Below are positions 43,163 to 52,345 of a DNA stretch of 64,000 nt, one piece after another. Location of the stretch: assembly GCA_965219415.1 (NCBI GenBank), contig CBDCNP010000002.1, positions 448,001 to 512,000 on the forward strand. The letters run 5' to 3'. This DNA comes from Candidatus Marinacidobacterales bacterium. Its GTDB lineage: Bacteria > Acidobacteriota > Vicinamibacteria > Marinacidobacterales > DATDRI01. The notes under the pieces are model-generated. The model had not been told where the DNA came from and ran no database searches. It saw only the letters and a list, made by a program, of their open reading frames with translations. The translations under genes were made by a program, and so were the position numbers. Every line of letters begins with the position of its first letter. Positions within the stretch are counted from its first letter, which is position 1.

Positions 43163-44080
43163 TTAGTCGCCTCGAGGTAGGTCGAAAACCATCGCGTCTT
43201 CTCCGATGACGATCGGTCCGTCGAACTCGGACTTGGCGGCGGCGAGAATCTTCGACCAAATCTCCGGACCGCGGCGTGGGCCGTAGTACATGGACGCCAT
43301 CTCCACCGCCACGGGATGAGAGTCGTAAGGTCCAAGATGCGTCAACACGAGCTTCTTGGCACCGGCGCGACGGGCGACGCTTCCCGCGCCGCGAGGCCCG
43401 GTGTGTCCCCGCATCTCCCGGTGCTCCATGATTTCCTCCAGAAACGTGCATTCATGGACGAGAACGTCGACGTCTCGCGCGAGCTCCACCATCGCGTCAC
43501 AAGGCTCGGTATCTCCGCTGATCGCCGCCGAACCGTACTCGGTGTCTACACGGAATCCGTAGGAGGAGTTCTCGAAACCCAAAAGTTGAATGTGCGTTAC
43601 CTCTCGGGCCGTTACCTTGAATTTGTCGGTCTCGAGAACTGTGCCCTCTCGAATCTCATTCACTCGTATGAGTGGCTCGGGCGTGGGCCGCTCGGTGATG
43701 TGATCCGGCAGGCTCGCAACGAACCGCTTCACGAACTCCACGTCGATGTGATGCATCTCCAACATCCCGGCCACCATTCGCTCGGTGCCCATCGGACCGT
43801 ATACGTTCAGCGGAGCAGCCTTCCCGCAGTTCCAGGTGCTGAGAAAGAGATAGTTGCAATCCACCATGTGATCCCAATGGAGATGGGTAATGAACAAGTG
43901 GTCGACATCCATCGGATTGATCCCGGCGCGGACCAGATTGACGGTTGCCCGCTCTCCGCAATCGAAGAGCAGCACTTCCCCATCGACGACGACCGCTTGG
44001 GACGGATTGCCGCGTGACGGATCGGGAACTGCCGAGCCGGACCCTACCACGACGACCTTCATACCTCGCGCGCCGGCCAT
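43163..44080 (-). CDS. MBL-fold metallo-hydrolase (paralog of 13482..14435)
   Basis: GSGSAVPDP.RGN, THLHWDH, ISGDT, VHEC and GHT motifs. Confidence 0.9.
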   Translation of the reverse strand: MAGARGMKVVVVGSGSAVPDPSRGNPSQAVVVDGEVLLFDCGERATVNLVRAGINPMDVDHLFITHLHWDHMVDCNYLFLSTWNCGKAAPLNVYGPMGTERMVAGMLEMHHIDVEFVKRFVASLPDHITERPTPEPLIRVNEIREGTVLETDKFKVTAREVTHIQLLGFENSSYGFRVDTEYGSAAISGDTEPCDAMVELARDVDVLVHECTFLEEIMEHREMRGHTGPRGAGSVARRAGAKKLVLTHLGPYDSHPVAVEMASMYYGPRRGPEIWSKILAAAKSEFDGPIVIGEDAMVFDLPRGD

Positions 44081-44156
44081 AGTGGCACGCAGTATACACT
44101 CTCAATGAACTGCCCTATACTCCTCAACAAATTTGCCGGGGATGAAGGAGAAAGAG

Positions 44157-45257
44157 ATGAAGAAAAAAGTCGAGACCGAAGTGAGTCAAGGATTCAGCCG
44201 TCGAAACCTCTTTCGCGCAGTTCTTGGAGGAACGGTGGCTTCCGCCGTCTCGTCACGCGCTTCGAGTGTCGAAGCGGCTCGTCCAACCCTTGAGGCCCTC
44301 GAGGCCGACGTCGGCGACCAAGGTATGTACGCGGTGATCACGGGGTCCGGCTCCGCCATGGCCGATCCCGAGCGAGGCAACGCCAGTGCCGCGGTGGTCG
44401 TAGATGGAACCGTTCTACAGTTCGACTTCGGCCGTAAAACGATGGACAACTTGATGCGCGTCGGGATCAATCCAATAAACATCGACTACATTTTCTTCAC
44501 CCACCTTCATTTCGACCACATCGCTACCTACGACTATTTCATCATCTCGTCTTGGATCGCGGGGCGTAGGACTCCCTACAAGGTGTTCGGACCTCCGGGC
44601 ACCGAGGCGATGTCGAACGGGGCGCTCCATCACATGCACGAAATGGACGTCCGATTCGTAAAATATATCGTCGACACCTGGCCCGACATTGCCGAGAAGC
44701 CTCCGGTGGCGGAGCCGCCCGTCGAAGTCACCGACGCCGAACCGGGTCTGGTGGTCGAGACCGACGATTTCAAGGTCACTTCGACCGCAACTCCGCACCT
44801 CAGTCCCCCCAACATGTACAGCAGAGGTTATCGGGTCGACTCCAAATACGGCTCGGTCGTCATCAGCGGAGACACTGCCCCTTCCGAGAATATGGTTGGG
44901 CTTGCCAAGGACGCCGACATCCTCATTCATGAGTGCGTCATCCCCGACTACGGTATGACGACAGCCGGCAAGTTCAGCCGCAAGGAATTCCACGTGAAGG
45001 AAACGAAGAATCAACGGACTGGCCACACCTCGCCGACCGGCCTGGGGAAACTGGCCGCACAGGCCGGGGTGAAGAAACTGGTGGCCTACCACCTCGCTCC
45101 TTACACCAGCGTGCCGGCGGCGGTGGAAATGTCCGAGAAGTACACCGGTCCCAACCCGGGTCCGGAGATCTGGTCGAAGTACATCCACGCCATGAAGAAC
45201 CAGTACTCGGGCCCGGTCATCCTGGCGGAAGACGCGATGGTGATCAAAGTTTCGTAA
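44157..45257 (+). CDS. Tat-exported MBL-fold metallo-hydrolase
   Basis: SRRNLF Tat motif; THLHFDH, ISGDT, IHEC and GHT motifs; AAGGAG RBS before ATG 44157. Confidence 0.9.
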   Translation: MKKKVETEVSQGFSRRNLFRAVLGGTVASAVSSRASSVEAARPTLEALEADVGDQGMYAVITGSGSAMADPERGNASAAVVVDGTVLQFDFGRKTMDNLMRVGINPINIDYIFFTHLHFDHIATYDYFIISSWIAGRRTPYKVFGPPGTEAMSNGALHHMHEMDVRFVKYIVDTWPDIAEKPPVAEPPVEVTDAEPGLVVETDDFKVTSTATPHLSPPNMYSRGYRVDSKYGSVVISGDTAPSENMVGLAKDADILIHECVIPDYGMTTAGKFSRKEFHVKETKNQRTGHTSPTGLGKLAAQAGVKKLVAYHLAPYTSVPAAVEMSEKYTGPNPGPEIWSKYIHAMKNQYSGPVILAEDAMVIKVS

Positions 45258-45269
45258 GGTGGTCCCGTC

Positions 45270-46298
45270 ATGAAGGGCTTCACACGAAGAGGGTTCTTCG
45301 GCGGCCTCCTGGTAGCGCCCGCCGCCTTCGGCCTCAAAAGCGCCGAAGCCGCGAAGAGCGTGGACTTGGAACGCCCCGGCATGCGGGCGTTGATCACCGG
45401 CTCCGGATCGGCGCTCATCGATCCACTCCGCGGCAACGCGAGTGTGGCGGTGATCGTCGACGGAACGGTCCTTCAGTTCGACTTCGGCCGTCGCGCAATG
45501 GACAACCTCGCGCTGGCGGGGATCAATCCGGTGAACGTGGATTACATTTTTTTCACGCACCTCCACTTCGACCACATCGCGACGTACGACTACCACGTCA
45601 TCTCCAGCTGGATCGCAGGACGTCAGACTCCGATTGAAGTTTATGGACCCCTGGGTACGACAGAGATGTCGGACAAAGCCATCTATGGAATGCACGCGGT
45701 GGACATCGTTTTCGTCGAGAAGCTCTTGGCCGGGTGGCCGAAGCGGCTCGATCGTAGACCGAAAGATAAGCCGCCGATCGATGTGCACGATGTCGGGGCC
45801 GGGGTGGTGACGGAAACGGATACCTTCAAGGTCACGGCGGTGGAAACGCCGCACTATCGATCGATGGGCGTTCGAAGCCTCGGCTATCGAGTCGACTCCG
45901 AGCACGGATCGATCGTCGTGAGCGGAGACACCGCACCATCGGACGCGCTCGCCGAGCTCGCCCAAGGAGCAGACCTCCTCATTCATGAATGTGTGATTCC
46001 CGATCCCGGCATGACGAAGTCGGGTAAGTTCGCGGAAAAGCCTCCCGAAGACGAACCGCCCGAGGGGCACACGTCTCCCACTGAGCTCGGGCAACTAGCG
46101 CAACGTGCGGGTGTGAAGAAGTTAGTCGCCACCCACCTTGCTCCGTATACGAGCGTCGACGCCGCGGTAGAAATGTCGAGCATGTACCTCGGCCCTCGGC
46201 TGGGCGAGGAAATCTGGGGAGAATTCGTACACGCGATGAAGCAGCAATACGAGGGCCCCGTCGTCTTGGCCGAGGACGGGATGGTGTTCGAAATTTAA
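45270..46298 (+). CDS. Tat-exported MBL-fold metallo-hydrolase
   Basis: TRRGFF Tat motif; THLHFDH, VSGDT, IHEC and GHT motifs. Confidence 0.9.
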   Translation: MKGFTRRGFFGGLLVAPAAFGLKSAEAAKSVDLERPGMRALITGSGSALIDPLRGNASVAVIVDGTVLQFDFGRRAMDNLALAGINPVNVDYIFFTHLHFDHIATYDYHVISSWIAGRQTPIEVYGPLGTTEMSDKAIYGMHAVDIVFVEKLLAGWPKRLDRRPKDKPPIDVHDVGAGVVTETDTFKVTAVETPHYRSMGVRSLGYRVDSEHGSIVVSGDTAPSDALAELAQGADLLIHECVIPDPGMTKSGKFAEKPPEDEPPEGHTSPTELGQLAQRAGVKKLVATHLAPYTSVDAAVEMSSMYLGPRLGEEIWGEFVHAMKQQYEGPVVLAEDGMVFEI

Positions 46299-46306
46299 AT
46301 GCAGTG

Positions 46307-47975
46307 CTAGGGTTTGTAGAGTTCCGCGATGTGGATGTCGGCTTCTTGAGTCAGGCGTGAAAAAACGATCTTCTTTCCGTCCGGAGACCATCCTCCGTTT
46401 AGAACAACTCCGACTTTGGCGTCGGTGAGCCGCTGCGGTTGTCCCAAGGCCCTAGGCAACTCTCCAGGTGCGTTAGGCGGAGCCAACCGCAGCAAGAAGA
46501 GCGCTTGGCCGGTAAGCTCGTGGTTGCTCGTACCCGGTTTCCCGTCATCGCAATAGCTTACCGCGCGACCGTCCGGGGCAACATCTAGCTCCCAGTGATC
46601 GCCGCGATAGAGTGTCACCTCCTGGCCACTCTTCAGGTCGGCAACTACCATTTCCCGTGTTGTGGGCGCGTCTTCCCCAAGACGCGTGTAGACGACGTGT
46701 CGGCTGTCTCGGTACCAATCGAAACGAACGGCGCGCGGAAAATGGGACCGGGCGTTTTGGCCGTCCCGGTCCACGACCCAGAGAACCTCACCTTGATCTG
46801 CCGCGCCGATGTAGCCGATGGCCTTGCCGTCGGGAGACCATCGGGGGGCTAGCTCCCGATAGGTTTGCTCTTCCGTCCCTCGGATCAGGATCCTGTGATC
46901 CGTCAGGGGGCGCGGGGCGCCACCTTCGACACTTGTGACCCACACTTGGAAATCCCCGCCACGGTTCGAAAGAAAGACGATCTCGCGTCCGTCTGGCGAC
47001 CAATCAGGCTGGATATCCATGGCGGGTTGATCGGTAAGTTGCCGTTCCGAGCTCGTGTCCAGATCGAGGAGCCAGATCTCATTGTTGCCCGTGCGGTCGG
47101 ACTGATAGACGATCTTTCTCCCGTCCGGGGAGACGCGGGGAAAAAAGTTGTCGCGGGTAGTCAAGGTCAAACGTTGTTCCGCTTCGCCTTCCAACCCACG
47201 TAAGTATAGGCCCGACTCGGGGTTAAACCGCGCGTAGGCGAGAACGGCCTGGCGTGAAACGACCGGATCACCCTCACTTTCAACTCCCGAGGTCAACTGG
47301 CGTATGCGACCCGACGCGATCTCCATCTCCCATAGGTTTCTTGTTCCGGACCTCATGGACGCGAAGAGAATGTGTTCGCCGTCGGGTGACCAGGAGGGCT
47401 GAAAGTCCCAGTCCCGACCGCCGAGAAGCAAGCGCGCCTCGCCGCCGCTCCCAGGCAATACGAACAGGTTTACGGTCCCTTTCGCCCGGCGGGTAAACGC
47501 AATCCGTTCCCCATCGAAGGACCACGAAGCATGTAGGTCATCGCCGCCGGGTGGCGGCTTGGTCATTTGCGTTTCTTCTGCCGTCGAGGAGGTTGATCTT
47601 CCACACCGCCATTTCCCCGCTCGGTCCAAAGCGGGAGAAAAGCAGCTGCTGACCGTCGGGCGACCAGGGCATGGGGCCGAGCGGGTGATTCAGGGGCACC
47701 CCGTTGGTGTCCGCCAACTCTCGTTCGGGGCCTCCCAAGGGCGGAATTAAATAGACTTTCGGCCCGGCGCCTCTGTCCGATAGAAACGCGATGTACCTCC
47801 CGTCGGGGGACCAGCGCGGGGAGACCTCATCCGCGGCGCTGTGGGTGAGCTGAACCGGCTCTCCCCCAGCTACCGGTTTCACGAAGATGTCGGTGCTCCC
47901 GGCCTGAGGACGCTCGTAGGCGATTAAGCTCCCGTCAGGAGACCACGTCGGGTACCGCTCCACGCCAACGAAGCT
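46307..47975 (-). pseudogene. TolB-like PD40 beta-propeller part of a wHTH-TM-propeller regulator (detached from its N-terminus; 1-bp insertion near 47588)
   Basis: Repeated P.WSPDG units; colinear inverted paralog of 48767..50434. Begins abruptly at AGC TTC GTT GGC (SFVG). Confidence 0.88.
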
Positions 47976-48192
47976 CCATGATCGAAGCATCTGTAACGGA
48001 GAAACTCGAACGGCTCGAGGCCAAGCGCCTTGGCAAAGTCAAGAATCCGAGAAAGAGCCTCGTAGACGCCGACACGTCACCGGGAGCGCGCGCAATACCC
48101 GCTCCTGTGAGGCGCTTCGTGTGGGCGCGCGACCAGGGTCAATGCACCTTTGAGAGCGGGGACGGTAGACGATGTCCCGAGCGCCTAGGACT
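47976..48192 (+). pseudogene. Displaced internal fragment of the HNH endonuclease gene at 51101..52051
   Basis: Encodes (S)MIEASVTEKLERLEAKRLG...RAIPAPVRRFVWARDQGQCTFESGDGRRCPERLG(L), the RD..QC...RC half of an HNH domain. Fits exactly into the break at 51366|51367. Confidence 0.85.
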
Positions 48193-48240
48193 AACGAAGA
48201 GCTCTTCAACGATCCCCCCTAGTAATGAAAATGAGAGTCT

Positions 48241-48269
48241 TTGCGGTCTGGCGGGCGTAATGCTACACT
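48241..48269 (+). promoter_or_regulatory. Putative sigma70 promoter of the wHTH regulator (second copy at 50497..50525)
   Basis: TTGCGG-N17-TACACT with extended TG; conserved in both duplicated upstream regions. Confidence 0.5.
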
Positions 48270-48293
48270 TTTGCCTCTTTCCCGGAGGAATCG

Positions 48294-50434
48294 ATGCCAA
48301 CCTCATTCCGCATCGGCGAATGGTTGGTTGACCCTCGCGCCGACCGAATCGTCAGCCCCGACGAGACCGTACACATCGAACCCCGCGCCATGCAGGCGCT
48401 GGTCTATTTGGCCGAGCATGCCGGCGAAGTGGTCACCCGCGATGAAATCCTGCGAGCGGTTTGGGAAGAAACGTTCGTCGCCGACGAGGTGCTGACTAGT
48501 GCCATCGCAAAGCTGCGTCGAGCGTTCGGCGACGAAGGCACGAACCCGACCTTCATTCAGACGGTACCCAAGAAAGGCCCTAACGTAACGATCGTTCCCA
48601 TTCGTCGAGGAATTGGCGTTGCTCGGTCCTGCTGCTGCTCCGCCGGCGAAACGGAAGCATTCAGTCGATAGCGGTCGCGGTGTTCGTAGTCGGTGCCGGG
48701 ACTTATCTCTTCACCAACTCCACTCCGCCTGACCCGACGCCGTCTCTGAACGTCAAGCTCTTCACCAGCTCCGTTGGCGTGGAGCGGTACCCGACGTGGT
48801 CTCCTGACGGGAGCTTAATCGCCTACGAGCGTCCACAGGCTGGCAACACGGACATTTTCGTGAAACCGGCAAGTGGGGGAGAGCCGATTCAGCTCACCAG
48901 CAGCCCGGCGGATGAGATCTCTCCGCGCTGGTCCCCCGACGGGAAGTACATCGCGTTTCTATCGGACCGAGGTCCCGGGACCAAAGTTTATGTGATCCCA
49001 CCTCTGGGAGGCGCCGAACGAGAGTTGGTGGACACCAACCGGGTGCCCCTGAATCACCCACTGGGCCCCATGCCTTGGTCGCCTGACGGTCAGCACCTCC
49101 TGTTCTCACGCTTGGGACCGAGCGGAGAAATGGAGGTGTGGAAGGTCAACCTCTCGACGGCAGAAGAAACACAAATGACCGAACCGCCCCCCGGCGGCGA
49201 AGACCTGCACGCATCGTGGTCGTTCGATGGGGAAAGGATTGCGTTCGCCCGCCGGGGGAAGGGGACCGTAAACCTGTTCGTATTGCCTGGGAGTGGCGGC
49301 GAGGCCCGTTTACTTCTCGGCGGTCGGGACTGGGCCTATAAGCCTGCCTGGGCACCGGACAACCAACACATTGTCTTTGGGGCCTTGACGTCCGGAGCTA
49401 AAGATCTGTGGGAGGTGGAAGTTGCGTCGGGTCGCCTACGCCAGTTGACCTCGGGAGTTGCAAGTGAGGATGATCCGGTCGCTTCACGCCAGGGCTCTCT
49501 CGCATACGCGCGCTTTAGCGAAGAGTCGGGCCTGTACTTACGTGGGTTGGAAGGCGAAGCGGAACAACGTTTGACCTTGACTACCCGCGACAACTTTTTT
49601 CCCCGCGTCTCCCCTGACGGCAAGAGAATCGCCTATCAGTCCGACCGCACGGGCAACAATGAAATCTGGCTCTTCGACCTGGACACGAGCTCGGAACGGC
49701 AACTTACCGATCAACCCGCCATGGATATCCAGCCTGATTGGTCACCCGATGGACGCGAGATCGTCTTTCTTTCGAACCGGGACGGGGACTTCCACGTGTG
49801 GGTCATGAATGTAGATCACGTAGTCCCGCGCCGCTTGACGGACCACAGCATCTTGATCCGAGGGACGGCAGAGGAAACCTATCGGGAGATAGCCCCCCGA
49901 TGGTCTCCGGACGGCAAGGCCATCGGCTACATCGGCGCGGCCGAGCAGGGTGAGACTCTTTGGGTCGTGGACCAGGACGGCGAAAATGCCCGGTCCTATT
50001 TTCCGGACGCCGTTCGTTTCGATTGGTATCGAGACAGCCGACACGTAGTCTACACGCGTGTGGCGGAAGGCGATTCGGCAACACGGGAAATGGTAGTCGC
50101 CAATTTGGAGAGCGGCAAAGAGTTCATACTCTACCGCGGCGATCACTGGGAGCTAGACGTCGCCCCGGAGGGTAGCGCCGTAAGCTATTGCGACGACTTG
50201 AGACAGGGTGGGAGCGCCCCCGAGCTTTCCGGTCAAGCGCTCTTCCTGCTGCGATTGGCTCCGCCTAACGCACCTGGAGAGTTGCCTAGGGCCTTGGGAC
50301 AACCGCAGCGGCTCACCGACGCCAAAGTCGGAGTTGTTCTAAACGGAGGATGGTCTCCGGACGGAAAGAAGATCGTTTTTTCACGCATGACTCAAGAAGC
50401 CGACATCCACATCGCGGAACTTTACCAACCCTAG
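48294..50434 (+). pseudogene. CadC/ToxR-like wHTH + TM + PD40 beta-propeller transmembrane regulator, disrupted by a 94-bp internal inversion
   Basis: N-terminal Trans_reg_C-type domain (FRIGEW..EPRAMQALVYL..GEVVTRDEIL..VW..LTSAIAKLRRAFGD..FIQTVPKKG). 48579..48672 read on the minus strand gives YRLNASVSPAEQQQDRATPIPRRMGTIVTLG. The propeller ORF 48680..50434 is intact. Confidence 0.88.
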
Positions 50435-50549
50435 CACTGCATTTAGATCTCAATCACCATCCGTGGCCCCCCCTTAGTAAGCGAAAATGAGACTCTTTGC
50501 GGTCCGGCGGGCGTGATGCTACACCTTCGCATCCTTCCCGGAGGAATCG

Positions 50550-51040
50550 ATGCCAACCACCTACCGCATCGGCGAATGGTTGGTTGACCCTCGCGCCGAT
50601 CGAATCGTCAGCCCCGACGAGACCGTACACATCGAACCCCGCGCCATGCAGGCGCTGGTCTATTTGGCCGAGCATGCCGGCGAAGTCGCCGCGATGAAAT
50701 CCTGCGAGCGGTGTGGGAAGAAACGTTCGTCACCGACGAAGTGCTGACTAGTGCCATCGCAAAGCTGCGCCGGGCGTTCGGCGACGAAGGCACGAATCCG
50801 ACCTTCATCCAAACGGTACCCAAGAAGGGTTATCGATTGAATGCTTCCGTTTCGCCGGAGGAGCCACAGCCGGGCCAAGCAACACCCGTTTCAGAAACGG
50901 GGGCCAGACAACTTCCTCGACGAACGCGCACGATCGTTGCGTTGGGGGTCGCAGTGTTCGCAGTCGGTGCTGGCACCTATCTCTTCGTCGACTCAGCTCC
51001 GCCCGACGTAACGCCGCCTCTCAACATTAAGGCCTTCACC
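50550..51040 (+). pseudogene. Second wHTH + TM N-terminal fragment (4-bp deletion near 50687), truncated where the propeller should start
   Basis: Near-copy of 48294 onward: ...TVPKKGYRLNAS...VALGVAVFAVGAGTYLF...NIKAFT, followed by unrelated sequence. Confidence 0.85.
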
Positions 51041-51100
51041 TTCCACCAAGGCGAGATTTTTTTCTCACGTCCTTCGCCTGGACCTGCCAAGTTGCGCGAG

Positions 51101-52051
51101 CTAGAAAACGGCTCGGGGTGGGGTGCGGTCCTTCGTTGCGAGTTGCACAGCAGCACGGAGGGGCGGCGATTCATGAACTCTGTCCGGAAAGAGTGGAAAC
51201 GACGGCTTCGGTTCACCGACCCGGTCGGCGGCACGGCGGTACTGCTCCATCTTGCCTTTGCCGTAGTCTATCTCCGCCATGTAGAGATTGCGGACCACAT
51301 AGAAGTCTGACATTGTCGGCACTTCGATCGCCGCCGAGCGCGTGGGGATCGTCGTGATGGAACTGCAGGCGAGGTCGGCACCCGGCATGAGGGCCGCGAG
51401 CCGTTGGAGCTTGTCCTGAAGGTCAGCACTCGCGGTGAACTGCACGCGGTACCGCGAAGGTGCCAGCGGCTCGACGACCGGCGGCTTGTCAGCCGTTTCG
51501 GGAGCCGGGGCCCGCTCAGGTTCAGGGGCTGGACTCTTTCCGGACGGAGTACCTTCGGCGCCTGACGTACGGAGTTCGCTTGCCGGCTTCTGTCGCCGCT
51601 TCGGAAGCTTCCGGATGGAGGGCGAGACATCCGGTTTCGGCGCAATCTCCGCCGCCAGCACCAGGAGCTCGCGTTTGGTCTTGTGGGTTGCTCGAGCCAA
51701 GAGCTCCTCGCAATTGGTGTCGGTAAGATGCGGTGCCAGCACCGTGATGCCGCTCAAGTGAAGACGCCCATCGTCGAGCATCGTCAGAAGCACCGGATGT
51801 CGGCGCGACGCCCGTGCGGTGGCTATCCGTAGGAAGGCTTCTGCCTCGGACAAGTGCAACACGTCGACGCAATATTTAAACATCGATGACGAAGCTTCAC
51901 GGGCATACAGTCGGCGTGCATCGACTTCGGCGATATGCGCAACGAGAACCGACTCCACACGTCGCGACTGTTTCAAAACGCTCGACAGTCGGCCAAGAAG
52001 CTCGTCATCCGACAGTGGGGAAAGCGATTTCAATTTGTCTTTTTTGTTCAT
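51101..52051 (-). pseudogene. DUF222-like/HNH endonuclease gene lacking its central 217 bp
   Basis: LSDDELL..L..SRRVESVLVAHIAEVDARRLY..SSMFKYC..LHLSEAEA..RI..AR; EPLAPSRYRVQFTAS. Out-of-frame QFHHDDPHALGGDRSADNVRLLC follows 51366, then NLYMAEIDYG. Confidence 0.82.
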
Positions 52052-52345
52052 GCGCCTGTTATAGCATGGACTTTTTTGACGCTCTGTGCCCGCGCGTATT
52101 GAACGCGAATGCGTCGAGACACTTCGAAGTCTATCCAAGCAAACGAGCGTGCCTGTCGTTTCCTTATCGCACGTACAGGCCCACTCCAGATCGTACCTGC
52201 GGTTTTTTTCATATCGCCGCGAATAAGCTGTCAAGAAAAAAGTGAATTATTTTTCTCAGCGATCTCCCCTGTTTTGGGAAGGTGCTCTTAATCCCCCCCT
52301 CCACACGCCGTCCCACACCGTGTACAATGGCGGTCGGTTGCTTGG

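What the first reader, a model, noticed from the sequence alone, without database searches (positions are those of the whole stretch)
47975..51367. Scrambled locus: gene pieces permuted and inverted, re-joinable without losing a base
Seen: four clean breakpoints at 47975|47976, 48192|48193, 51040|51041 and 51366|51367. (a) The wHTH fragment ending ...AAG GCC TTC ACC at 51040 (+) joins the propeller starting AGC TTC GTT GGC at 47975 (-). This reproduces the intact paralog's TTC ACC AGC TCC GTT GGC with no gain or loss. (b) The 217-bp block 47976..48192, flipped and placed at 51366|51367, gives ...GAC CTC GCC T|CC ATG...GGA CT|G CAG TTC CAT CAC and restores the HNH frame (ADLASMIEA...RLGLQFHH). 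Define M=47976..48192, X=48193..51040, C=51041..51366. The observed order L-M-X-C-N derives from ancestral L-X(inv)-C-M(inv)-N. This needs three inversions with breakpoint reuse, or one multi-break event. The breakpoints share no motif or inverted repeat, so this is not a classical shufflon/invertase. Inference: local shattering and end-joining (a bacterial micro-chromothripsis, e.g. by Ku/LigD NHEJ), which destroys a resident endonuclease gene. A library or assembly chimera is the main alternative.
Basis: partly seen in the sequence, partly recalled or inferred. Interest (0 to 1): 0.85.

Follow-up and report, generated by a model that had tools for sequence, protein, structure and literature searches.

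The report
Shattered and re-stitched bacterial gene cluster
A 3.4-kb stretch of a bacterial chromosome was cut at seven places and its six pieces rejoined in a new order and orientation almost to the base, and both the scrambled and the original versions occur in natural samples, so this is a real, recent, multi-break rearrangement.

Summary
All four breakpoints and both "perfect re-joins" are confirmed.

The window reads L·M·Xa·s(inv)·Xb·S·C2·N. The ancestral order is N'·M·C2'·S·Xa·s·Xb·L', with all genes co-directional. That is 7 breakpoints and 6 fragments, with a reversal distance of 5.

It is not an assembly chimera. Contigs built independently from two public runs bridge 5 of the 7 window junctions. 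Two other runs carry ancestral junctions, and one run appears to hold both alleles.

Five junctions are flush. Two seem to carry a 2-nt duplication (GC, AA). Undoing the small inversion and dropping one GC restores an uninterrupted 712-aa ORF.

The breakpoints share no motif or inverted repeat, and no recombinase gene lies in the window. Ku and a three-domain LigD are encoded.

Best reading: a recent multi-break event repaired by end-joining. A single event is favoured but not proven. The gene it killed was the intact wHTH-PD40 paralog. The HNH copy also carries a frameshift whose timing is unknown.

The parts
46307..47975 (-). Block L: PD40 (TolB-like) beta-propeller part of wHTH-PD40 copy 1. 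It is cut off from its own wHTH/TM part. It already carried a 1-nt insertion at about 47589.
   Evidence: PD40 Pfam hits. 88% inverted repeat with paralog 2 (I1/I2). Indel list. A flush join to 51040 reproduces the paralog's register.
47976..48192 (+). Block M: the 217-nt middle piece of the local HNH-like gene. It has moved 3.2 kb and is inverted relative to the rest of that gene.
   Evidence: exact 217-nt gap in N'+C2', and flush junctions in paralogs. The best identity to any other copy is 90.8%, so it is the local piece and not a recent copy of another. The M|Xa junction is bridged by contigs of X4 (48033-48337) and X7 (48028-48337).
48193..48578 (+). Block Xa: upstream region and wHTH domain of paralog 2 (ORF starts at 48294). 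Its first two bases, AA, duplicate the AA that follows S.
   Evidence: Trans_reg_C hit. Joint 51088->48193 with 2 ambiguous letters in X5 and X1.
48579..48672 (.). Block s: the linker segment of paralog 2 inverted in place (core 48579-48670), followed by a second copy of the dinucleotide GC (48671-48672, duplicating 48577-48578).
   Evidence: Inverted relative to copy 1 (I3/I4). Contigs of X4 and X7 (48401-48801) bridge both ends as in the window. X5 and X1 show the un-inverted joint 48576<->48672. Re-inversion plus removal of one GC restores a 712-aa ORF, and the three controls fail.
48673..51040 (+). Block Xb: TM segment and propeller of paralog 2 (to 50434), an intergenic region, and the wHTH/linker part of copy 1 (50550-51040). 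Copy 1 has a 4-nt deletion at about 50689.
   Evidence: The X5 contig 50657-51040 ends exactly at 51040. The X4 contig 50657-51203 runs on as in the window.
51041..51090 (.). Block S: a 50-nt intergenic block (TT + core 51043-51088 + AA). In the ancestral form it lies between the end of the HNH-like gene and Xa. Here it is flipped relative to C2 and moved to the other end of X.
   Evidence: X1 contig of 328 nt with joints 51088->48193 and 51040<->51092 on opposite strands. X5 shows 51088->48193. Homology to the other HNH copies starts only at 51094.
51091..51366 (-). Block C2: C-terminal part of the local HNH-like gene (H-N-H-type motif region). It has a 2-nt deletion near 51288-51292.
   Evidence: Paralog-derived contigs of all four runs 'put in TG behind 51288' (table 4). 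Intact paralog protein.
51367..52234 (-). Block N: N-terminal part of the local HNH-like gene. Element homology runs to about 52266.

Best explanation
The locus is a real, recent, complex chromosomal rearrangement in a natural strain.

The ancestral locus read, all on one strand: HNH-like gene (N'·M·C2'), a 50-nt spacer (S), the intact wHTH-TM-PD40 gene (paralog 2 = Xa·s·Xb), and then its already frameshifted tandem copy (end of Xb + L').

The DNA was broken at seven places within 3.4 kb. The six released fragments are 217, 276, 50, about 384, about 92 and about 2368 nt long. They were ligated back between the unbroken flanks in a new order and orientation by homology-independent end-joining. 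The most likely machinery is the genome's own Ku/LigD system.

Five joints are flush. Two seem to carry a 2-nt duplication, as expected if a 2-nt 5' overhang was filled in on both ends before ligation.

Most likely this was one event or a very short burst. It inactivated paralog 2 and further dismembered two genes that already carried frameshifts.

Shown: the structure, the flush joints, both alleles in nature, the ORF restoration, and the presence of ku and ligD.
Inferred: end-joining as the chemistry, the fill-in, the single event, and the cause of the breaks.
For: 1. The junctions are real. X4 contigs cover 48033-48337, 48401-48801 and 50657-51203 with 0 differences. X7 contigs cover 48028-48337 and 48401-48801. 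That is 5 of 7 window junctions bridged.
2. The ancestral allele is observed. One 328-nt contig of X1 carries rc(Xa)-rc(S)-C2. X1 and X5 carry the un-inverted s joint. In X1, wHTH1 is followed co-directionally by copy-1-like propeller sequence (joint 50752->49390, 92% identical).
3. X5 seems to hold both alleles. Its contigs stop exactly at 51040 and 48578, and its ancestral-junction contigs have only 28-30 letters on the shorter side, about k-1.
4. The event is recent. Eight X5 contigs totalling about 2.6 kb across the locus have 0 differences from the window. Paralog 2 becomes a clean 712-aa ORF once the inversion and one GC are undone.
5. The joins are conservative. There are no indels at N'|M, M|C2' or Xb|L'.
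6. There are 7 breakpoints. Any inversion-only path needs at least 5 steps with base-exact reuse of breakpoints.
7. There is no site motif or inverted repeat and no recombinase gene in the window.
8. Ku (304 aa) sits beside an ATP-dependent ligase gene. A 706-aa LigD has phosphoesterase, ligase and Prim-Pol domains.
9. Passages in print describe matching NHEJ behaviour. Fill-in of 5' protruding ends is a characteristic bacterial NHEJ outcome, and NHEJ can capture DNA fragments in either orientation into a chromosomal break (PMC6379672). LigD PolDom does templated synthesis on 5'-protruding substrates (PMC3898472).
Against: - Zero deletion at any of seven breaks is cleaner than the outcomes usually described for bacterial NHEJ, which include resections (PMC6379672 passages).
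- Retention and re-ligation of 50-nt and 92-nt fragments is demanding.
- The AA duplication rests on my reading of two joints. For one of them the tool notes 'between: not known'.
- Junctions 47975|47976 and 51366|51367 are not visibly bridged in the listed contigs. Paralog contigs swamp those bins, and 396 pieces were not shown.
- X4 and X7 come from one study and may include the sample the genome was assembled from.
- No single molecule phases all seven junctions, so intermediates cannot be excluded.
- Nothing identifies what made the breaks.
Confidence: 0.58

Rival explanations
1. Serial independent events: five or more separate inversions or inverted transpositions, each by illegitimate recombination or a two-break end-joining, accumulated in a decaying and dispensable locus.
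For: All three genes carry other lesions: a 4-nt deletion and a 1-nt insertion in copy 1, and a 2-nt deletion in the HNH copy. The genome is very rich in repeats and IS elements, with many decayed HNH copies. X1 has its own ~0.9-kb deletion in copy 1. So the locus tolerates damage.
Against: The minimum is 5 inversions on 7 breakpoints, which needs base-exact reuse of breakpoints with no site motif. Only two haplotypes were seen: all-ancestral junctions in X1 and all-derived in X4 and X7. The X5 junction depths are similar at 8 and 9.3. The alleles are identical over about 2.6 kb of shared contigs. Paralog 2 has no lesion other than the inversion footprint.
Confidence: 0.2
2. Replication-based template switching (serial strand switches of the MMBIR/FoSTeS or short template-switch type) copied the blocks in a new order.
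For: Small in-place inversions (46-92 nt) with 1-3 nt of ambiguity or overlap at the joints resemble template-switch products. The 2-nt 'duplications' could be over-copying at a switch point.
Against: Every block is present exactly once, and the source positions are emptied to the base. M is missing from N'|C2' as exactly 217 nt. A copying mechanism would not be expected to give zero net duplication or loss over seven switches, one of them spanning a 2.8-kb block.
Confidence: 0.09
3. A conservative cut-and-rejoin enzyme acted on pseudo-sites. Candidates are topoisomerase subunit exchange, one of the multicopy IS-borne serine recombinases, or the HNH-like element's own protein.
For: Five flush joints with no loss would fit covalent-intermediate chemistry. 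The genome carries 17 resolvase-domain matches, several with identical scores, so such enzymes are abundant in trans. Two of the seven breaks lie inside the HNH-like gene and two just downstream of it.
Against: There is no shared sequence at the breakpoints. Conservative recombinases do not add 2 nt. None is encoded in the window. The local HNH copy is frameshifted.
Confidence: 0.08
4. A programmed, reversible inversion system (shufflon or intragenic inverton) is switching gene variants.
For: Both arrangements seem to coexist in one sample (X5). Two paralogous genes are involved, as in some shufflons.
Against: There are no inverted repeats at the segment ends. The maximum exact inverted repeat is 6 nt, and 97% of random sets do as well. 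No recombinase gene lies within the 64-kb window. The derived state yields only broken ORFs. The derived state differs by 2-nt gains, so it is not a clean flip. One block (M) changes place, not only orientation.
Confidence: 0.03
5. An assembly, library or MDA chimera.
For: The genome bin has 8.45% estimated contamination and strain heterogeneity is possible. Two junctions are not visibly bridged.
Against: Five junctions are reproduced with 0 differences by k-mer contigs of two separate runs. The structure is conservative to the base, unlike typical chimeras. The alternative allele occurs in two other studies.
Confidence: 0.02

Closest known systems
Chromothripsis / balanced complex rearrangements of eukaryotic chromosomes (criteria recalled from memory, not taken from a call)
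   Same: Breakpoints are clustered. Fragments are rejoined in apparently random order and orientation. Junctions have 0-3 nt of homology. A single derivative can be walked end to end.
   Different: The scale is 3.4 kb with fragments of 50-2368 nt instead of kilobases to megabases. It is fully balanced, with no fragment lost. It lies in a bacterial chromosome with a two-protein NHEJ system. No micronucleus or bridge mechanism applies. A single event is not proven. Two literature searches gave no bacterial case among the papers listed (15 of 21 and 12 of 248 listed).
Bacterial Ku/LigD NHEJ outcomes (PMC6379672 and PMC3898472, passages read; PMC5869714 seen only in the listing)
   Same: Joining is homology-independent. 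5' overhangs are filled in, giving small duplications. DNA fragments are captured into a break in either orientation. The genes are present in this genome.
   Different: The published cases read here concern one engineered break or one captured cassette, with frequent deletions. Here seven natural breaks were rejoined with no deletion at all.
Shufflons and programmed or intragenic inversions (10.1101/2023.03.11.532203 and PMC9881135, seen only as listing and start of abstract)
   Same: DNA segments inside and between genes are inverted in place, and two forms coexist in a population.
   Different: Here there are no flanking inverted repeats, no recombinase nearby, no alternative functional ORFs, a 2-nt gain at junctions, and one block that is transposed.
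Template-switch mutations / MMBIR-type complex rearrangements (recalled from memory)
   Same: Short inverted segments lie close to their origin, with a few nt of microhomology or overlap.
   Different: Those mechanisms copy, so the source stays in place. Here every source position is vacated exactly.

Membership tests
Chromothripsis-like single-event shattering | Clustering of many breakpoints in a small region | tested here: met
   7 breakpoints between 47975 and 51367. None of this kind was detected elsewhere among high-identity repeats, apart from a few IS-context flips.
Chromothripsis-like single-event shattering | Fragments rejoined in scrambled order and orientation, forming one walkable derivative | tested here: met
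   The signed permutation (1,3,-4,-7,6,-5,-2,8) has reversal distance 5 and DCJ distance 5.
Chromothripsis-like single-event shattering | All breaks arose in one event (no intermediates) | tested here: inconclusive
   Only all-ancestral (X1) and all-derived (X4, X7) junction sets were seen. X5 holds both, at similar depth. The alleles are identical over about 2.6 kb. But contigs are short, and no molecule phases the junctions.
Ku/LigD NHEJ product | Ku and LigD are encoded and apparently intact | tested here: met
   Ku: 166 bits, 304-aa ORF. LigD: 706 aa with LigD_N, ligase and Prim-Pol domains.
Ku/LigD NHEJ product | Junctions without homology and with small fill-in or processing footprints | tested here: met
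   0-3 nt of ambiguity at joints. The GC duplication is supported by ORF restoration. The AA duplication is inferred and is less certain.
Ku/LigD NHEJ product | Genetic dependence on ku/ligD | not testable with these tools
   Needs an experiment.
Shufflon / site-specific invertase system | Conserved crossover sites in inverted orientation at the segment ends | tested here: not met
   word sharing and inverted-repeat length are not above random positions.
Shufflon / site-specific invertase system | Dedicated recombinase gene adjacent | tested here: not met
   the nearest resolvase-domain and integrase-domain matches on contig C3 are at 2.52 Mb and 2.87 Mb. The window is at 0.448-0.512 Mb.
Shufflon / site-specific invertase system | Inversion is sequence-neutral and reversible | tested here: not met
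   Re-inversion alone does not restore the frame. A 2-nt removal is also needed.
HNH endonuclease / DUF222-type protein (the multicopy gene that M, C2 and N belong to) | Match to a curated HNH or DUF222 profile | tested here: not met
   No Pfam family at E<=0.1 and no NCBIfam family at E<=0.01 for the intact 389-aa paralog or for the local pieces.
HNH endonuclease / DUF222-type protein (the multicopy gene that M, C2 and N belong to) | Homologs annotated as such, and an H-N-H-like motif | tested here: inconclusive
   Of the 120 homologs listed, 5 carry PF02720. One is named 'HNH endonuclease' and one 'McrA' by their sources. The motif ...HHDDPYGVGGDRSADNVRLLCRPHN... is visible, and reading it as HNH is from memory.
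ToxR/CadC-like membrane-bound regulator (the wHTH-PD40 genes) | N-terminal OmpR-type winged helix, one hydrophobic segment, periplasmic sensor domain | tested here: met
   Trans_reg_C and PD40/TolB-like hits. The hydrophobic stretch TIVTLGVAVFVVGAGTYLF appears in the restored ORF. Topology is inferred.

The most novel reading that the evidence does not exclude
A bacterial chromosome underwent a one-shot, chromothripsis-like local shattering: seven double-strand breaks within 3.4 kb, possibly inflicted by a nuclease attack. All six fragments, down to 50 nt, were held together and re-ligated by Ku/LigD without loss. Both the intact and the shattered allele are still segregating in natural populations, which would make bacterial NHEJ-driven complex rearrangement directly observable in the wild.
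Probability: 0.4. Interest if true: 0.78.

Novelty: new variant of a known kind. Interest (0 to 1): 0.62.

Why it matters
Bacterial NHEJ is known mainly from engineered single breaks. Its footprint on natural genomes is mostly inferred from deletions.

Here a base-resolved, balanced rearrangement of seven breaks can be read together with its ancestral allele. It shows that homology-independent joining can shuffle gene pieces, including tiny ones, in a bacterial chromosome. It can also kill a working gene in one stroke.

If it was a single event, it is a prokaryotic counterpart of chromothripsis. It would also be a natural test case for how many ends Ku/LigD can keep together.

Practically, it warns that 'scrambled' loci in MAGs need not be misassemblies. 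Small inversions with 2-nt duplications could be searched for as an NHEJ signature.

Tried and rejected
- Relatives. A DNA search of 31 genomes matched 23. All listed matches outside the own genome fall in the HNH-like parts, except one 89-nt hit in G002. 125 matches were not listed. So no unscrambled orthologous locus was found among those searched.
- Reference species genomes. A protein-based scan with the paralog-2 propeller gave only distant relatives, at 22-32% identity in the 80 loci kept. The top ones are titled Candidatus Poribacteria and Acidobacteriota MAGs. No ortholog was usable for synteny.
- Metagenome contigs. Two exact-pattern scans found 0 records.
- Genome-wide hunt for further scrambles.
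  - A megablast of the genome against itself gave 60,439 HSPs.
  - A three-HSP in-place-inversion screen found 0. It was too insensitive even for the known small inversion.
  - A gap-reversal screen found 42 cases, all trivial: segments between terminal inverted repeats of IS-like elements, or palindromic self-hits.
  - A two-HSP screen found 55 junction clusters, dominated by one IS copy.
  - So I cannot say whether such events are rare or common in unique DNA.
- Simple re-inversion of the small segment with any boundary did not restore the frame. This led to the 2-nt model.
The parts of the stretch without cover in X1 (5 of 30 bins) are not used as evidence.
- The joints 47300<->49523, 47398->47799, 51216->51584 and 51224->51533 I read as cross-mapping of paralogous propeller or HNH copies, not as features of this locus.
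Supplementary files of the papers were not consulted. Supplementary Figures S2 and S5 of PMC6379672 may bear on how often NHEJ joints are flush.
- G007 is flagged unpublished.

Full report
**What is there**

The window is C3:448001-512000 of an 8.05-Mb genome in 3 contigs, 59% G+C. Homolog names suggest Acidobacteriota.

Between two tandem MBL-fold hydrolase genes (to 46298) and an SDR gene (from 52346) lie three gene remnants.
- **Two paralogs of a membrane-regulator-like gene.** Each has an OmpR-type winged helix (Trans_reg_C), a hydrophobic segment and a PD40/TolB-like propeller.
- **One copy of a multicopy gene of about 1.4 kb.**
  - Its intact 389-aa paralog hits no Pfam or NCBIfam model.
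  - It has 2848 homologs at E<=0.001 among the 8000 candidates scored.
  - Of the 120 listed, 5 carry PF02720 (DUF222). One is named HNH endonuclease and one McrA.
  - The genome holds at least 11 other M-like hits, 5 of them full-length. Several copies carry internal deletions.
  - Copies also occur in 22 of 30 relatives searched.

**Check of the observation**

Both re-joins are exact.
- **Join of 51040(+) to 47975(-).** It gives ...TTCACC|AGCTTC..., in register with the paralog's ...TTCACCAGCTCC.... The reconstructed copy 1 aligns to paralog 2 with no indel at the join, position 491.
- **Block M (217 nt).** It is exactly what the local HNH-like gene lacks.
  - N'+C2' aligned to an intact paralog shows one 217-nt gap.
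  - N'+M+C2' aligns to three paralogs at about 91% with no indel at either joint.
  - Four other copies show N, M and C hits abutting base to base.
  - M is at most 90.8% identical to any other copy, so it is the local piece.
- **Breakpoint sequences.** They share no word or inverted repeat beyond what random positions give.

1. Within paralog 2, 48578-48670 is inverted relative to copy 1 (I3/I4).
2. Public-run contigs place 51088 directly before 48193 (X5, X1) and join 51040 to 51092 on opposite strands (X1). Hence a 50-nt block S (51041-51090) is flipped relative to C2.

The ancestral order, read in gene sense, is N'·M·C2'·S·Xa·s·Xb·L', with all genes co-directional. The window is L·M·Xa·s(inv)·Xb·S·C2·N. 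This gives seven breakpoints. The reversal distance is 5, with 140 equally short scenarios, and the DCJ distance is 5.

**Is it an artefact?**

No. One search found 9 runs from 5 studies holding part of the stretch. I laid four of them (Logan contigs).
- **X4 and X7** are two samples of one study.
  - They bridge the window's junctions with 0-1 differences.
  - Both cover 48192|48193 (48033-48337 and 48028-48337) and both ends of s (48401-48801).
  - X4 also covers 51040|51041 and 51090|51091 (50657-51203).
  - So 5 of 7 junctions are bridged.
- **Junctions 47975|47976 and 51366|51367** are not visible in the listing. Those bins are flooded by paralog contigs, and 396 pieces were not shown.
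- **X1** comes from another study and differs by about 1%.
  - It carries only ancestral joints, on one 328-nt contig.
  - It also shows wHTH1 followed co-directionally by copy-1-like propeller sequence, with a deletion of its own of about 0.9 kb.
- **X5** comes from a third study.
  - Its contigs are identical to the window over about 2.6 kb.
  - They end exactly at 51040 and at 48578.
  - Its ancestral-junction contigs have 28-30 letters (about k-1) on the short side, at depths 8 and 9.3 against 14-16 for the flanking contigs.
  - I read this as both alleles being present. That is an inference from contig ends, not a direct observation of the derived joints in X5.

**Footprints**

Three joints (N'|M, M|C2', Xb|L') are flush by alignment. 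C2'|S is flush given 3 ambiguous letters.

- **At s.** The dinucleotide GC stands at both ends (48577-78 and 48671-72).
  - Re-inverting 48579-48670 and dropping one GC gives a 2139-nt ORF of 712 codons with no stop.
  - That ORF reads ...KKGYRLNASVSP...TIVTLGVAVFVVGAGTYLF..., colinear with copy 1.
  - Re-inversion alone, dropping 2 nt alone, and the sequence as it stands all stop at codon 125-131.
- **At S|Xa.** The ancestral contig has one AA where the window has two: 48193-94, and 51089-90 after the S core. This rests on my reading of the 'both' columns, and the tool marks one joint 'between: not known'.

So there is no loss at any break. Two breaks apparently gained 2 nt, as expected for 2-nt 5' overhangs filled in on both ends.

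**State of the genes before the event**

- **Paralog 2** was intact.
- **Copy 1** already had its 4-nt deletion at about 50689. That deletion is present in contigs of X1 and X5, which carry ancestral joints. It also has a 1-nt insertion at about 47589.
- **The local HNH-like copy** has a 2-nt deletion in its motif region near 51288-51292. When that arose is unknown.

**Mechanism**

- **Site-specific inversion is unlikely.** There are no sites. None of the 17 resolvase-domain and 13 integrase-domain matches lies in the window. The products are not functional. The flip is not sequence-neutral.
- **Copy-based template switching is unlikely.** It does not explain why every source position is vacated to the base.
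- **Break-and-join fits.** The genome encodes Ku (304 aa) next to an ATP-dependent ligase, and a 706-aa LigD with phosphoesterase, ligase and Prim-Pol domains.
- **Published passages support this.**
  - They describe fill-in of 5' protruding ends as a characteristic outcome of bacterial NHEJ.
  - They also describe NHEJ capture of DNA fragments, in either orientation, into a chromosomal break (PMC6379672).
  - And they describe templated synthesis by LigD PolDom on 5'-protruding substrates (PMC3898472).
- **One event or several?**
  - One multi-break event needs 7 breaks.
  - Serial inversions need at least 5 steps and base-exact reuse of breakpoints.
  - The two alleles are identical in about 2.6 kb of shared contigs, and no intermediates were seen.
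  - I therefore favour a single event or a short burst, without proof.
- **Cause of the breaks.** It is unknown. A nuclease is a guess.
- **A point against NHEJ.** No deletion at seven breaks is unusually clean.

**Comparison and novelty**

The closest analogue in form is balanced chromothripsis in eukaryotes (criteria recalled from memory). The closest in chemistry is bacterial Ku/LigD NHEJ.

Two full-text searches gave no bacterial chromothripsis-like case among the papers they listed. One search listed 15 of 21 papers holding all terms. One search listed 12 of 248. This is not proof that none is in print.

I rate the finding a new variant of a known kind: a natural, base-resolved, balanced multi-break end-joining product in a bacterium, with both alleles extant.

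**Verdict**

- The artefact and shufflon explanations are rejected.
- The end-joining interpretation is supported but not proven.
- The main casualty was a working regulator-like gene. The endonuclease-like gene carries a frameshift of its own.
- Interest is moderate to high (0.62).

Noticed in passing
G000 genome-wide; e.g. C2:250803-251650: The genome is extremely rich in repeats: 60,439 megablast self-HSPs. An ~846-nt IS-like element has about 44-51 copies. The copy at C2:250803-251650 has its terminal 275 nt flipped in place relative to 42 other copies, with one breakpoint exactly at the element's end. That suggests an aberrant transposase reaction, not the process seen in the window.
   Followed up: partly
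G000: C3:3532568, C1:1121016, C3:4727403, C3:5102351, C3:4265169 and others: There are 17 resolvase-domain matches. Several have identical scores and lie in 525-560-aa frames, so a multicopy element carrying a large serine recombinase is present. None lies near the window.
   Followed up: no
window 51094-52266 plus 47976-48192; G000 copies e.g. C3:4110527-4111918, C1:646350-647507, C1:98615-99417, C1:878600-879093: The HNH/DUF222-like gene behaves like a selfish multicopy element. The genome has at least 12 copies or fragments at 82-94% identity, several with internal deletions. It is multicopy in many relatives too. No curated family matches it.
   Followed up: partly
window 50753-51040 and 47352-47975 (as seen in run X1): The strain in run X1 appears to carry a deletion of about 0.9 kb that joins 50752 (with two extra letters, AG) to copy-1-like propeller sequence. 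This is an independent lesion of the already frameshifted copy 1, in the ancestral arrangement.
   Followed up: no
window 43163-46298: Three paralogous MBL-fold (metallo-beta-lactamase-like) hydrolase ORFs lie side by side, one on the minus strand and two in tandem on the plus strand. By ORF length they all appear intact.
   Followed up: no
L014-L017, L027, L031 (genome contigs): The nearest, though distant (28-31%), relatives of the PD40 domain among species-representative genomes are in records titled Candidatus Poribacteria MAGs. No close ortholog of the wHTH-PD40 gene was found outside the window's own genome.
   Followed up: no
window 47960-47975 and 48193-48203: Block M is flanked in the window by similar words: AACGAAGCT on the left and AACGAAGAGCT on the right. 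The left one is coding sequence of the propeller start. I take the likeness to be chance, but did not test it.
   Followed up: no
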